30,540 bases of DNA, taken from positions 6,272 through 36,811 of the forward strand of contig CAYNBU010000003.1 of assembly GCA_964395925.1 (NCBI GenBank), written 5' to 3'. Below, one piece after another: positions 14,288-16,493 of the stretch (position 1 is the stretch's first letter; the number at the start of each line of letters is the position of its first letter). The translations under genes and the position numbers were made by a program. Below the pieces are notes generated by a model, which saw only the letters and a program-made list of their open reading frames with translations, had not been told where the DNA came from and ran no database searches. The DNA is from an uncultured Candidatus Saccharibacteria bacterium. GTDB taxonomy: Bacteria; Patescibacteriota; Saccharimonadia; Saccharimonadales; JAUPVS01.

Positions 14288-15085
14288 ATGAGTGAAAGTG
14301 AGCCCCCCAAAGAAGCGGTAAAGCCAGAGGCAAGCAGCGCTCGTAAACCGCCGACCATTACGTGGGGGCCGATTGCGGCGATTGTAGTTTCGGTGCTGCT
14401 GTACTTTGGTTCGCAGATTATCGGGAGTTCCATATTACTGGTTGTGGGCCAGCTGCAGGGCATTTCAGGCGACCAACTCAACAGGTGGTTCGAACAAACC
14501 GGCCCGCAGTTTTTGTACATAGCCTCGGTGGAGTTTATTACGCTGAGCGGCTTGGCACTATTCTTACATACACGAAAAGCCGGGTTCCGCACGTTGGGGC
14601 TGGTAAAGCCTGCCTGGAAGGATCTAGCCTGGGCGCTGACTGGCTTTGGTATTTATTTTCCGGCGCTGATTGCCACCACCATTGCGGTGAAGCTGTGGTT
14701 CCCGGGGATTGACCTCGACCAGGAGCAGCAGATCGGGTTCCAGGCAGCACACGGCTTCTGGCCGCTGCTCCTAGTATTTGTGAGCTTAGTTGTGCTTCCG
14801 CCCGTGACCGAAGAAATCGTCACCCGCGGGTTCTTGTATTTGGGCCTCAAATCAAAACTCAAACGCTACTGGGCGATTATTATCACCAGTGCAATTTTTG
14901 CCATTGCACATTTGCAATTTGGGAGCGGCGCACCACTGTTATGGTCGGCAGCCATCGACACCTTTATTTTGTCGGTAATCCTCATTTACGTGCGCGAAAA
15001 GACGGGCGCGCTGTGGGCGTCTATTGGGCTGCATATGATCAAAAACGGCCTAGCTTTCTGTACCCTATTTCTTTTTGCAAAGTAA
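14288..15085 (+). CDS. CPBP (Abi/CAAX) intramembrane glutamic protease
   Basis: Multi-TM, with EEIVTRG (EExxxR), FAIAH and H...N motifs. Confidence 0.88.
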   Translation: MSESEPPKEAVKPEASSARKPPTITWGPIAAIVVSVLLYFGSQIIGSSILLVVGQLQGISGDQLNRWFEQTGPQFLYIASVEFITLSGLALFLHTRKAGFRTLGLVKPAWKDLAWALTGFGIYFPALIATTIAVKLWFPGIDLDQEQQIGFQAAHGFWPLLLVFVSLVVLPPVTEEIVTRGFLYLGLKSKLKRYWAIIITSAIFAIAHLQFGSGAPLLWSAAIDTFILSVILIYVREKTGALWASIGLHMIKNGLAFCTLFLFAK

Positions 15086-15102
15086 TAAGGTAGGATGGTG
15101 GT

Positions 15103-15168
15103 ATGAGCTGCAAATCATGCGTAGAACTCATCGTAGCGACACCGCCAATTATGGAGGTGGATGTTTAG
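15103..15168 (+). CDS. Candidate proS leader peptide MSCKSCVELIVATPPIMEVDV (21 aa)
   Basis: Translated by hand; absent from the ORF track. Tandem Pro codons CCG CCA at 15142-15147. The stop TAG lies inside the 5' strand of a hairpin that competes with a terminator. Preceded by AGGA (SD-like) and TAGGAT (-10-like, 6 nt upstream). Confidence 0.5.
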   Translation: MSCKSCVELIVATPPIMEVDV

Positions 15169-15195
15169 TTTTTTATAGATAAAACCTAAACATCA

Positions 15196-15220
15196 CCCCT
15201 CGAAACCCGAGGGGATTTTT
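15196..15220 (+). terminator. Intrinsic terminator / attenuator upstream of proS
   Basis: CCCCTCG-AAACC-CGAGGGG followed by ATTTTT, ending 19 nt before the proS GTG. Confidence 0.7.
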
Positions 15221-15239
15221 AGTAGAAAGGAAGACCAAC

Positions 15240-16493
15240 GTGCGTGTAACAGAACTGTTCACCAAGACCCGCAAGCAGGCGCCAGCCGACGAAGTGTCGA
15301 AAAATGCCCAATTGCTCATCAAAGCCGGATTTATCCATAAAGAAATGGCAGGCGTCTATGCCTATTTGCCGCTTGGTCTCCGCGTCCTCGAAAATATCAA
15401 GGCAATTATCAGAGAAGAAATGAACGGGGTTGGTGGTCAGGAGCTCTTGATGACCAGCTTGCAATCCAAAGAAACATGGGAAGTCACCTCACGATGGGAT
15501 GACGAAGTTGTTGATGTTTGGTTTAAGTCGCAACTTAAAGATGGCACTGACGTAGGGTTTGGTTGGTCGCACGAAGAACCAATTGTTAATATGGTCAAGC
15601 AACAGCTGAGTAGCTACAAGGATCTGCCGATTAACGTGTATCAATTCCAGACTAAGCTTCGTAACGAGCTTCGTGCAAAAAGTGGCATCATGCGCGGCCG
15701 CGAATTCCTCATGAAAGACATGTACTCGTGTAGTGTCAGCGAAGAGCAGCACGAGAAGTTTTATCAAGCAACAATCGAAGCATATAACCGTATTTTTGAT
15801 CGTTTAGGCATTGGCGAAGATACGTATGTGACTTTTGCTAGCGGTGGAGCATTCACACAGTTTAGCCACGAATTCCAAACGGTGTGTGAAGCCGGTGAAG
15901 ATGTAATCTACTTAGACGAAGAACATAACATTGCGGTGAACGAAGAGGTGCTCAACGACGAAACGCTCAACAAGCTTAATGTTAAAAAAGAGGATCTCAA
16001 AAAAGTAAAAAGCGCCGAAGTTGGCAACATTTTTAACTTCGGAACACATAAAAGCGAACAGATGAACTTCACCTTTACCAACGAGGCAGGCGAGCGCGAA
16101 TTTGTGCATCTTGGCTCGTATGGTATTGGTGTCACCAGAGTAATGGGCGTGATTGTCGAAAAGCTTGCCGATGAAAAAGGCCTGGTATGGCCAGCCAACA
16201 TTGCACCGTTTCAGGTATACCTTGCACGGCTTGGTGACAAACCGGAGGTTGTCAAAGCGGCCGACGACCTGTATCATCAACTGCAAGAAACAAATATTGA
16301 GGTTCTGTACGACGATCGTGATGTCCGGCCCGGCGAGAAATTCGCCGACGCCGAGTTAATTGGTATCCCGTATCGAGTAGTGATCAGCGAAAAGACAGTC
16401 GCCGAGGGTAAAGTTGAACTCAAGGCTCGCACCGATTCCGACAGTACGTTGGTAACTACAGAAGAGATCCTCAAGATCGGTAAGAGTAAGTAA
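15240..16493 (+). CDS. proS: Proline--tRNA ligase, short bacterial type without full INS editing domain
   Basis: LLIKAGFI, GVYAYLPLG, motif 2 QTKLRNE.R...G.MRGREF.MKD.YS, motif 3 GSYGIGVTR and anticodon domain DDR...GEKF.DA.LIG.P. GTG start with SD GAAAGGAAG. Confidence 0.96.
   Translation: MRVTELFTKTRKQAPADEVSKNAQLLIKAGFIHKEMAGVYAYLPLGLRVLENIKAIIREEMNGVGGQELLMTSLQSKETWEVTSRWDDEVVDVWFKSQLKDGTDVGFGWSHEEPIVNMVKQQLSSYKDLPINVYQFQTKLRNELRAKSGIMRGREFLMKDMYSCSVSEEQHEKFYQATIEAYNRIFDRLGIGEDTYVTFASGGAFTQFSHEFQTVCEAGEDVIYLDEEHNIAVNEEVLNDETLNKLNVKKEDLKKVKSAEVGNIFNFGTHKSEQMNFTFTNEAGEREFVHLGSYGIGVTRVMGVIVEKLADEKGLVWPANIAPFQVYLARLGDKPEVVKAADDLYHQLQETNIEVLYDDRDVRPGEKFADAELIGIPYRVVISEKTVAEGKVELKARTDSDSTLVTTEEILKIGKSK

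What the first reader, a model, noticed from the sequence alone, without database searches (positions are those of the whole stretch)
15091..15242. Hidden Pro-Pro leader peptide and antiterminator/terminator pair: candidate ribosome-mediated attenuator of proS
Seen: uORF 15103-15168 encodes MSCKSCVELIVATPPIMEVDV with CCG-CCA at 15142-47. Its last codons and stop, GGTGGATGTTTAG (15156-68), pair with CTAAACATCACC (15186-97; 12 bp, one bulged G, extendable via GG 15153-54 to CC 15198-99). That helix captures the C-run needed for terminator CCCCTCG/CGAGGGG-ATTTTT (15196-15220), 19 nt before the proS GTG. The geometry is classical: a ribosome reaching the stop covers the antiterminator arm, so transcription terminates; a ribosome stalled at the Pro codons ~10 nt upstream leaves it free, so proS is read. 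Established: leader-peptide attenuation controls E. coli pheST and trp, whereas Firmicutes proS uses T-boxes, and leaderless sORF attenuators are known in mycobacteria. Inference: an organism that probably cannot make proline senses Pro-tRNA charging (or EF-P status) this way. I know of no described proS attenuator of this kind in CPR but cannot search. The uORF may itself be leaderless (TAGGAT 6 nt upstream).
Basis: partly seen in the sequence, partly recalled or inferred. Interest (0 to 1): 0.85.

Follow-up and report, generated by a model that had tools for sequence, protein, structure and literature searches.

The report
Proline-sensing leader attenuator before proS
A 21-codon mini-gene with proline codons and a switchable terminator hairpin sit just before the prolyl-tRNA synthetase gene of this Saccharibacteria genome and recur in its relatives, so the ribosome itself most likely reports the supply of charged proline tRNA: a textbook mechanism, at a gene and in a lineage where I found no description of it.

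Summary
The window has uORF 15103-15168 with Pro codons at 15142-47, a central hairpin, a G-run that can extend that hairpin onto the C-run of terminator 15196-15214 (U-tract 15216-20), and proS 19 nt later.

Two corrections:
- The 13-bp central hairpin coexists with the terminator; only 5 outer pairs compete with it.
- The G-run can also pair with the Pro codons themselves (15140-47 with 15152-59). This gives the classical four-segment design.

Comparison supports attenuation:
- All 9 genomes of the family keep the -10 box, Pro codons in the uORF frame, a stop in or beside the G-run, and the terminator.
- In the 7 aligned leaders the start lies 6-8 nt after the box, the conserved Pro codon lies 11-13 nt before the G-run, and the antiterminator covaries.
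- Across at least 14 families, all 42 curated uORFs before proS or its operon contain Pro.
- In the same order, hisG leaders carry this layout with His codons, and some chorismate mutase leaders carry Tyr codons.

No RNA data could be obtained, so the transcription start, termination and proline response are inferred. I found no published description. This scan noted the same device three times before, in other Saccharibacteria genomes. Verdict: new member of a known kind.

The parts
15091..15096 (+). -10 promoter box TAGGAT. It also reads as an SD-like AGGA 7 nt before the uORF ATG.
   Evidence: The aligned box is TAGCAT or TAGGAT in all 7 aligned family leaders. The uORF start follows 6 nt later in 6 of them and 8 nt later in G005. 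Other families have TAcAAT or TAgAAT boxes 4-12 nt before the uORF start. The transcription start is inferred, not measured.
15103..15168 (+). Leader peptide gene of 21 codons, probably leaderless, with stop TAG at 15166-68
   Evidence: ORFs of the same kind precede proS in the relatives.
15142..15147 (+). Pro codons CCG CCA. CCG 15142-44 is the codon conserved in all 7 aligned family leaders.
   Evidence: One search shows invariant CC.C columns. The Pro codon is in frame in all 7 and lies 11-13 nt before the G-run (read).
15140..15147 (+). Segment 1: pairs with the G-run (1:2 helix, anti-antiterminator)
   Evidence: Minimum-energy folds. In the RNAalifold consensus, the CC of the Pro codon pairs with GG in 7 of 7 sequences.
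15152..15172 (+). Segment 2: G-run 15153-59 plus the 5' arm of the central hairpin. It contains the uORF stop.
   Evidence: The block is conserved in the alignment.
15181..15201 (+). Segment 3: 3' arm of the central hairpin (15181-94) plus the C-run 15196-15201, which is captured by the G-run in the antiterminator
   Evidence: In 9 of 9 leaders of this class the G-run pairs with 3-5 of the 6-9 bases of the terminator's 5' arm.
15196..15220 (+). Intrinsic terminator: stem 15196-15202/15208-15214 and U-tract 15216-20
   Evidence: A terminator stem is predicted in all 7 aligned relatives, with some aligned pairs broken.
15226..15242 (+). proS ribosome-binding site (GAAAGGAAG) and GTG start at 15240
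   Evidence: class II core domain plus anticodon-binding domain. The start aligns with residue 1 of the relatives' proteins.

Best explanation
This is a classical four-segment leader-peptide transcription attenuator of proS that senses charged tRNA-Pro.

Transcription probably starts at or next to the A of ATG 15103, 7 nt after the -10 box. A ribosome translates the 21-codon leader.

- Pro-tRNA plentiful: the ribosome runs to TAG 15166-68 and covers the G-run (15153-59). The C-run stays free, the terminator 15196-15214 forms, and transcription stops at about 15220.
- Pro-tRNA scarce: the ribosome waits with CCG 15142-44 in its A site. This melts the 1:2 helix and leaves the G-run at its leading edge. 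The G-run extends the already formed central hairpin onto C15196-C15201. The terminator stem cannot nucleate, and RNA polymerase reads into proS.
- No translation: segment 1 pairs with the G-run and the terminator forms.

Shown here: the sequence elements, their conservation, covariation, reading-frame constraint, and the match between codon and gene. Inferred: the transcription start, translation of the uORF, termination, and the response to proline.
For: Structure in the window:
- All elements are present and fold better than shuffles.

Family conservation:
- All 9 genomes of the family have the device. Seven have it directly before proS. G004 has it before an ORF129-proS operon. G008 has it before an upstream ORF resembling the amino-acid-kinase gene of L029, then proS.
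- The Pro codon is the only invariant codon in the body of the uORF. It lies 11-13 nt before the G-run. In G002 the stop lies in another frame of the conserved block, yet a 1-nt indel keeps the Pro codon in frame.
- The inner antiterminator helix differs in sequence between genomes but stays paired. The G-run to C-run pairing is present in 9 of 9 leaders, with dG -12 to -20 against -9 to -12.6 for the terminators.

Wider sample:
- 108 proS upstream regions of the order are bimodal: 76 are 58 nt or shorter and 32 are 80 nt or longer.
- A start-codon rule that ignores content gave 34 ORFs of at least 13 codons in 68 long leaders. Of these, 33 contain Pro.
- All 42 curated uORFs contain Pro. Pro makes up 11.7% of their residues against 4.5% in the proteome.
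- In the single-hairpin variant, the 5' arm is read as CCG GCN in the eight leaders compared by eye (sequences), while the 3' arm falls in different frames. So the RNA hairpin is conserved and the frame of the Pro codon is fixed.

Codon tracks gene:
- hisG leaders have the same layout with 2-4 His codons (15.6% His).
- Chorismate mutase leaders have YY or YYY (20% Tyr).
- Fisher test of Pro against His in proS versus hisG leaders: p = 1e-8.

Other points:
- There is no room for a promoter in the 19 nt between the U-tract and the GTG.
- No P5C reductase domain was found in this 97%-complete genome.
Against: - There is no RNA evidence.
- The leader has only two Pro codons.
- The geometry is tight. 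With CCG in the A site, a leading edge at about +12 reaches G15154. With CCA in the A site it would cover most of the G-run, which would favour termination.
- The CC of the Pro codon also pairs with the G-run, so RNA pairing alone could explain part of its conservation.
- The terminator state is the more stable one at equilibrium.
- About two thirds of the proS genes sampled have a short upstream region with no such leader. Some of these carry it further upstream, before an operon.
- The statistics treat related genomes as independent, and the 42 uORFs were partly hand-curated.
Confidence: 0.75

Rival explanations
1. The uORF and the switch are real but report general translation capacity (ribosome supply, coupling with RNA polymerase) rather than proline specifically. 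Any slowing in the leader would open the gene.
For: There are only one to four Pro codons per leader, and just 5 of 42 have PP. The switch depends on where the ribosome sits, whatever the cause.
Against: Pro is the one residue kept in every proS leader, at a fixed distance from the G-run. The hisG and chorismate mutase leaders swap in His and Tyr codons, which a non-specific sensor would not need.
Confidence: 0.1
2. The leader is an RNA switch read by a trans factor, such as ProRS itself or uncharged tRNA-Pro. The CCN triplets are kept only because they pair with the G-run, and the ORF is incidental.
For: The CC of the conserved Pro codon pairs with GG in 7 of 7 sequences. A related Patescibacteria genome has a sub-threshold T-box-like match before proS (45 bits against a cut-off of 93).
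Against: Rfam found no family in the window or the leader. The ORF is open from a start 4-12 nt after the -10 box in most long leaders. The frame of the Pro codon is kept through an indel in G002. The stop always lies in or next to the G-run.
Confidence: 0.07
3. The Pro-Pro pair senses EF-P activity or polyproline stalling rather than tRNA charging.
For: The window and G003 have adjacent Pro codons. An EF-P N-terminal domain is encoded in the genome.
Against: Most relatives have a single Pro or a P-x-P pattern; only 5 of 42 have PP. A stall with Pro in the P site would place the ribosome 3 nt further on, over the G-run. That would favour termination, not read-through (coordinates).
Confidence: 0.04
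4. The hairpin is simply the terminator of the upstream CPBP protease gene, and the ORF is a chance ORF.
For: The terminator lies downstream of the CPBP gene, which ends at 15085.
Against: It lies 111 nt past that stop, behind a conserved -10 box and uORF, with no room for a proS promoter after it. The whole layout is conserved, even where a different gene lies upstream. Only about 10 of 331 intergenic regions of this genome show a box, ORF and terminator pattern at all.
Confidence: 0.03

Closest known systems
Classical leader-peptide attenuators of enterobacterial amino-acid operons (trpL, hisL, pheL, leuL, thrL)
   Same: A short translated leader carries codons of the regulated amino acid in segment 1. 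There are 1:2, 2:3 and 3:4 alternative helices, an intrinsic terminator just before the structural gene, and a stop placed so that a finishing ribosome masks segment 2. The his mechanism is as summarised in PMC8129111.
   Different: It regulates a tRNA synthetase, not a biosynthetic operon. It has only 1-4 regulatory codons. The leader ORF appears to start at the transcript's 5' end with no Shine-Dalgarno. Segments 2 and 3 share a stable central hairpin, and only 5 outer pairs switch. There is no sequence homology.
pheM leader of the E. coli pheST operon
   Same: A leader peptide with cognate codons attenuates transcription of an aminoacyl-tRNA synthetase gene.
   Different: A different amino acid, lineage and sequence. 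pheM has a run of Phe codons and a normal ribosome-binding site.
Proline-codon leader ORFs mgtL and mgtP of Salmonella mgtA and mgtCBR (PMC3641672)
   Same: Pro codons in a short leader ORF make ribosome progress, and so the leader RNA fold, depend on proline or Pro-tRNA supply.
   Different: They control Mg2+ transport and virulence genes in enterobacteria, act together with other signals, and are unrelated in sequence and context.
T-box leaders (RF00230) before proS in Firmicutes
   Same: The same gene and the same logic: uncharged tRNA-Pro leads to antitermination. T-box is listed as the known element in the proS context in PMC2836559.
   Different: The window has no specifier loop, T-box sequence or Rfam match. 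The sensor here is a translating ribosome, not direct binding of tRNA.
Leaderless cysteine-responsive small-ORF attenuators of mycobacteria
   Same: A leaderless small ORF with cognate codons governs the genes downstream.
   Different: A different phylum and amino acid. I did not check their mechanism in the papers held here.

Membership tests
Leader-peptide transcription attenuator (trpL/hisL/pheM type) | Short ORF in the leader, conserved as an ORF | tested here: met
   21 codons in the window. ORFs of 13-26 codons start 4-12 nt after the -10 box in most long proS leaders.
Leader-peptide transcription attenuator (trpL/hisL/pheM type) | Codons cognate to the regulated gene within the ORF | tested here: met
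   The Pro codon is invariant in 7 of 7 family leaders. All 42 uORFs contain Pro, at 11.7% of residues. His appears in hisG leaders and Tyr in chorismate mutase leaders.
Leader-peptide transcription attenuator (trpL/hisL/pheM type) | Intrinsic terminator between the leader ORF and the structural gene | tested here: met
   7-bp G+C-rich stem plus ATTTTT at 15196-15220. It is conserved in the relatives. This is a sequence-level test only.
Leader-peptide transcription attenuator (trpL/hisL/pheM type) | Antiterminator mutually exclusive with the terminator | tested here: met
   The G-run captures 5 of 7 bases of the terminator's 5' arm in the window, and 3-5 of 6-9 in 9 of 9 leaders of the class. 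The inner helix covaries.
Leader-peptide transcription attenuator (trpL/hisL/pheM type) | Geometry: a stalled ribosome frees segment 2 and a finishing ribosome masks it | tested here: inconclusive
   The stop lies inside segment 2 in the class, so that half is met. The conserved Pro codon is 11-13 nt before the G-run, right at the expected leading edge of the ribosome. The second Pro codon of the window, 8 nt before it, would mask the G-run.
Leader-peptide transcription attenuator (trpL/hisL/pheM type) | Read-through rises when the cognate charged tRNA is limiting | not testable with these tools
   No RNA or reporter data.
T-box riboswitch (RF00230) | Stem I with specifier loop and the conserved T-box sequence; match to the covariance model | tested here: not met
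   No Rfam match at the gathering score in the window. Only chance-level microRNA and snoRNA hits at E up to 10 in 14950-15400.
mgtL/mgtP-type proline leader ORFs | Leader ORF with Pro codons upstream of Mg2+ transporter or virulence genes of enterobacteria | tested here: not met
   The downstream gene is a class II prolyl-tRNA synthetase. The organism is a Saccharibacteria genome (record titles). The resemblance is in logic only.

The most novel reading that the evidence does not exclude
Saccharibacteria may use a family of leaderless leader-peptide attenuators as their main amino-acid sensing system, in place of T-boxes. Examples seen here are Pro for proS and its operon, His for hisG-hisE, and Tyr for chorismate mutase.

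The family would include a minimal variant, found in at least 12 taxonomic families. In it the sensed Pro codon is itself the first codon of the 5' arm of the only hairpin. In some of these leaders a second Pro codon lies in an anti-Shine-Dalgarno stretch. That would combine direct ribosome occlusion of a terminator with unmasking of the proS ribosome-binding site.
Probability: 0.4. Interest if true: 0.72.

Novelty: new member of a known kind. Interest (0 to 1): 0.58.

Why it matters
Almost nothing is known about gene regulation in the ultra-small, host-dependent Patescibacteria (CPR). This element gives a concrete, testable regulatory device. Its logic can be read from sequence: the cell measures charged tRNA-Pro with its own ribosome and adjusts the one enzyme that charges it.

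That fits an organism that seems unable to make proline and must take it from a host. The sister elements with His and Tyr codons suggest a small regulon of the same design.

It also adds proS to the few synthetase genes known to be under leader-peptide control. And it offers natural examples of leaderless regulatory ORFs outside the actinobacteria.

Tried and rejected
- Rfam at the gathering score over the window, and at E up to 10 over 14950-15400: nothing relevant.
- A 16-base motif scan of genome contigs returned mostly chance hits in unrelated phyla and was of no use.
- My guess that several long proS leaders of other Patescibacteria are T-boxes got no gathering-level support. Only one sub-threshold match was found, in L172.
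- The idea that the 13-bp hairpin is itself the antiterminator was rejected, because it coexists with the terminator in the minimum-energy fold.
- EF-P or polyproline sensing was rejected as the conserved feature, since PP occurs in only 5 of 42 uORFs.
- Masking of the proS Shine-Dalgarno by the uORF was tested. There is no signal in the window's class (mean z +0.6) and only a partial one in the single-hairpin class, where 6 of 28 have z below -2.
- Six literature searches found no proS leader-peptide attenuator and no leader-peptide attenuation in Saccharibacteria.

Full report
**What is in the window.** The gene order is uppS, rseP (M50 protease), a CPBP/Rce1-like protease ending at 15085, a 154-nt gap, proS (GTG 15240-16493; class II core plus anticodon-binding domain), greA, then lysS. 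The gap holds:
- TAGGAT at 15091-96;
- six bases later, an ATG opening a 21-codon ORF (15103-15168) with CCG CCA at 15142-47;
- a terminator-like hairpin, stem 15196-15202/15208-15214 followed by ATTTTT;
- then only 19 nt, containing GAAAGGAAG, before the proS start.

The leader folds better than all 200 dinucleotide shuffles (z = -3.47). Rfam finds nothing.

**Anatomy, refined.** I folded the presumed transcript in stages.
- A 13-bp central hairpin (15160-72 with 15181-94) is present in every state.
- The switching part is the G-run at 15153-59.
- Before segment 4 is made, the best fold extends the central hairpin. G15154, A15155, G15156, G15157 and G15159 pair with C15201, U15200, C15199, C15198 and C15196. 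This sequesters 5 of the 7 bases of the terminator's 5' arm.
- In the full leader, the best fold instead pairs the G-run with 15140-47, the stretch that contains both Pro codons, and the terminator forms.

So this is the classical four-segment layout:
1. Pro codons.
2. G-run plus hairpin arm, containing the stop codon.
3. Hairpin arm plus C-run.
4. G-rich arm plus U-tract.

The terminator state is about 4 kcal/mol more stable than the enforced antiterminator state. As in other attenuators, the antiterminator must therefore win kinetically.

**Who the organism is.** The window lies in a 0.77-Mb genome that is 97% complete. The closest ProRS genes in public genomes are labelled Candidatus Saccharibacteria or Saccharimonadales.

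**Comparative test within the family.**
- Seven of the nine species genomes of the same family have a leader of 146-189 nt directly before proS. They align into conserved blocks: the stop of the CPBP gene, the -10 box (TAGCAT or TAGGAT), a CC.C block, the G-run block, the C-run, the terminator 3' arm and the T-run. An ATG or GTG follows the box by 6 nt (8 nt in G005).
- In all seven, the CC.C block is read as a Pro codon in the frame set by the promoter-proximal start. It lies 11-13 nt before the G-run.
- In G002 the stop is a TGA in a different frame of the conserved block, yet a one-base indel keeps the Pro codon in frame.
- RNAalifold's consensus shows the terminator and the 1:2 helix. The CC of the Pro codon is paired to GG in 7 of 7 sequences.
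- Folding segment 2 to segment 3 alone gives the G-run to C-run pairing in 9 of 9 leaders of this class, two of them from other families. The inner helices differ in sequence but stay paired. Energies are -12 to -20 kcal/mol against -9 to -12.6 for the terminators.
- The remaining two genomes of the family carry the same device further upstream. In G004 it precedes a 129-codon ORF that overlaps proS. In G008 it precedes a 260-277-codon ORF, followed by proS, whose N-terminus resembles the L029 gene that Pfam places in the amino-acid kinase family.

**Comparative test across the order.**
- 310 of 401 sampled genomes have this type of ProRS.
- In 108 upstream regions the gap is bimodal: 76 are 58 nt or shorter and 32 are 80 nt or longer.
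- I pooled these with 80 loci from public genomes and 78 from metagenomes, giving 68 non-redundant long leaders.
- I applied a rule that ignores content: best -10 box, then the first ATG or GTG 4-12 nt later. It yields 34 ORFs of at least 13 codons, and 33 of them contain Pro.
- After curation there are 42 uORFs before proS or its operon. All contain Pro. Pro is 11.7% of their residues against 4.5% in this genome's proteins.
- By contrast, of the other nine uORFs of the box, ORF and terminator kind found anywhere in this genome, four have no Pro.
- Most leaders outside the family are a simpler variant: one G+C-rich hairpin whose core stem begins at an in-frame Pro codon (xxx CCG GCC, or ATG CCC), with the stop at or just after the hairpin.
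- In that variant the 5' arm is read the same way (CCG GCN) in the eight leaders I compared by eye (sequences), whereas the 3' arm is read in different frames depending on loop length. So selection is on the RNA hairpin and, separately, on the frame of the Pro codon.

These counts treat related genomes as independent and should be read as descriptive.

**Independent support: the codon tracks the gene.** A scan of this genome for the same layout found two more cases.
- *hisG-hisE.* Before a hisG-hisE fusion (Pfam) there is TACAAT, six bases, then a 19-codon ORF with H-L-H. An antiterminator holds the stop codon and overlaps a terminator.
  - hisG occurs in 24 of 301 genomes of the order.
  - Seven of their leaders encode a complete conserved peptide with two to four His codons, followed by the same kind of switch. 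Three further leaders show the motif in truncated upstream sequence.
  - His is 15.6% of those residues against 2.2% in the proteome.
- *Chorismate mutase.* This genome has a 23-codon leader with four Tyr codons. Three other genomes have YY or YYY leaders.
- *Contrast.* Pro against His counts in proS versus hisG leaders differ with p = 1e-8.

A structural RNA with an incidental ORF would not change its codons to match the downstream gene.

**How it most likely works.** See the best explanation for the full account. Three caveats remain.
- The conserved Pro codon sits right at the limit. With CCG 15142 in the A site, the ribosome's leading edge (about +12 by toeprint convention, own knowledge) reaches about 15154.
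- A ribosome waiting at the second codon, CCA, would cover most of the G-run.
- The Pro codon also takes part in the 1:2 helix, so RNA pairing contributes to its conservation.

Because only 5 of 42 uORFs have adjacent prolines, polyproline or EF-P sensing is not the conserved function. No P5C reductase domain was found in the genome, which is consistent with dependence on imported proline. tRNA-Pro genes with anticodons UGG and GGG were found.

**What is known.** Full-text searches found no leader-peptide attenuator of proS and none in Saccharibacteria. The closest known systems are:
- the classical amino-acid operon attenuators;
- pheM-pheST;
- the proline-codon leader ORFs mgtL and mgtP (PMC3641672);
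- T-box leaders of proS (listed for the proS context in PMC2836559).

One related Patescibacteria genome has a sub-threshold T-box-like match in its proS leader.

This scan has noted the same device three times before, in other Saccharibacteria genomes: e1-2041767, e1-2124871 and e1-2052332. My results agree with those notes, and I saw operon-leader versions of the same kind myself.

**Limits.** No transcript, ribosome or reporter data were available. Everything about the transcription start, termination and proline response is inference from sequence and comparison.

**Verdict.** This is a real, conserved feature. It is a new member of a known kind of regulator, moderately interesting in itself and more so as part of an apparent Pro, His and Tyr set.

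Noticed in passing
L111:100-275 (G000 contig C2): The leader of a hisG-hisE fusion gene has TACAAT, then six bases, then a 19-codon ORF with H-L-H. An antiterminator contains the stop and overlaps a terminator. At least ten hisG leaders in the order show the conserved His motif (two to four His codons in the seven complete peptides) and the same kind of switch.
   Followed up: yes
L111:270-420: The typical HisG N-terminus is encoded from ATG 270/273, in a different frame from the long ORF that starts at 328. This is either a frameshift (pseudogene) or an assembly error.
   Followed up: no
L112:520-660, minus strand (G000 contig C7): The chorismate mutase gene is preceded by TTGACA-17-TATATT and a 23-codon ORF with four Tyr codons. 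UUCGGCGG in that ORF is complementary to the 5' arm and loop of the terminator that follows. Three other genomes have YY or YYY leader ORFs before their chorismate mutase.
   Followed up: partly
L002, L007, L010, L012, L020, L057, L059, L083, L156, L323, L377, L382 (upstream of proS): A single-hairpin variant of the proS leader occurs in many other families. The Pro codon is the first codon of the hairpin's 5' arm, the stop falls at or just after the hairpin, the tail is only moderately U-rich, and there is no separate antiterminator. How ribosome position is turned into on or off here is unclear.
   Followed up: partly
L002, L006, L012, L039, L057, L382: In 6 of 28 single-hairpin leaders, a stretch of the uORF is strongly complementary to the proS Shine-Dalgarno region (z below -2; perfect 8-9 bp in L002 and L012). 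In L012 and L057 it includes a Leu-Pro codon pair. This hints at a translational component. The window's class shows no such signal.
   Followed up: partly
L022 and L025 (upstream of proS): Two genomes share a different conserved proS leader motif (aattttct.. gcgatactc). It has no Pro uORF and no Rfam match.
   Followed up: no
L172:497-633: A sub-threshold T-box match (45 bits, cut-off 93, E = 7e-9 for that stretch) lies in the 385-nt proS leader of a related Patescibacteria genome.
   Followed up: partly
L004, L029, G008 (L431/L034) and window 15121-15147: The leader peptides share more than proline. A motif close to F-E-(I/L)-D-V-P-(T/K)-P recurs in three genomes of two families, and the window reads V-E-L-I-V-A-T-P-P. 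This could reflect a nascent-peptide effect or pairing of segment 1.
   Followed up: no
G000 whole genome; L418: The EF-P central domain (PF01132) gave no match in this genome. An EF-P N-terminal domain is encoded in an open frame of only 95 codons on contig C1.
   Followed up: no
window 15088-15105: The -10 box TAGGAT also reads as AGGA 7 nt before the uORF ATG. The uORF could therefore also be translated on transcripts that read through from the rseP-CPBP genes.
   Followed up: no
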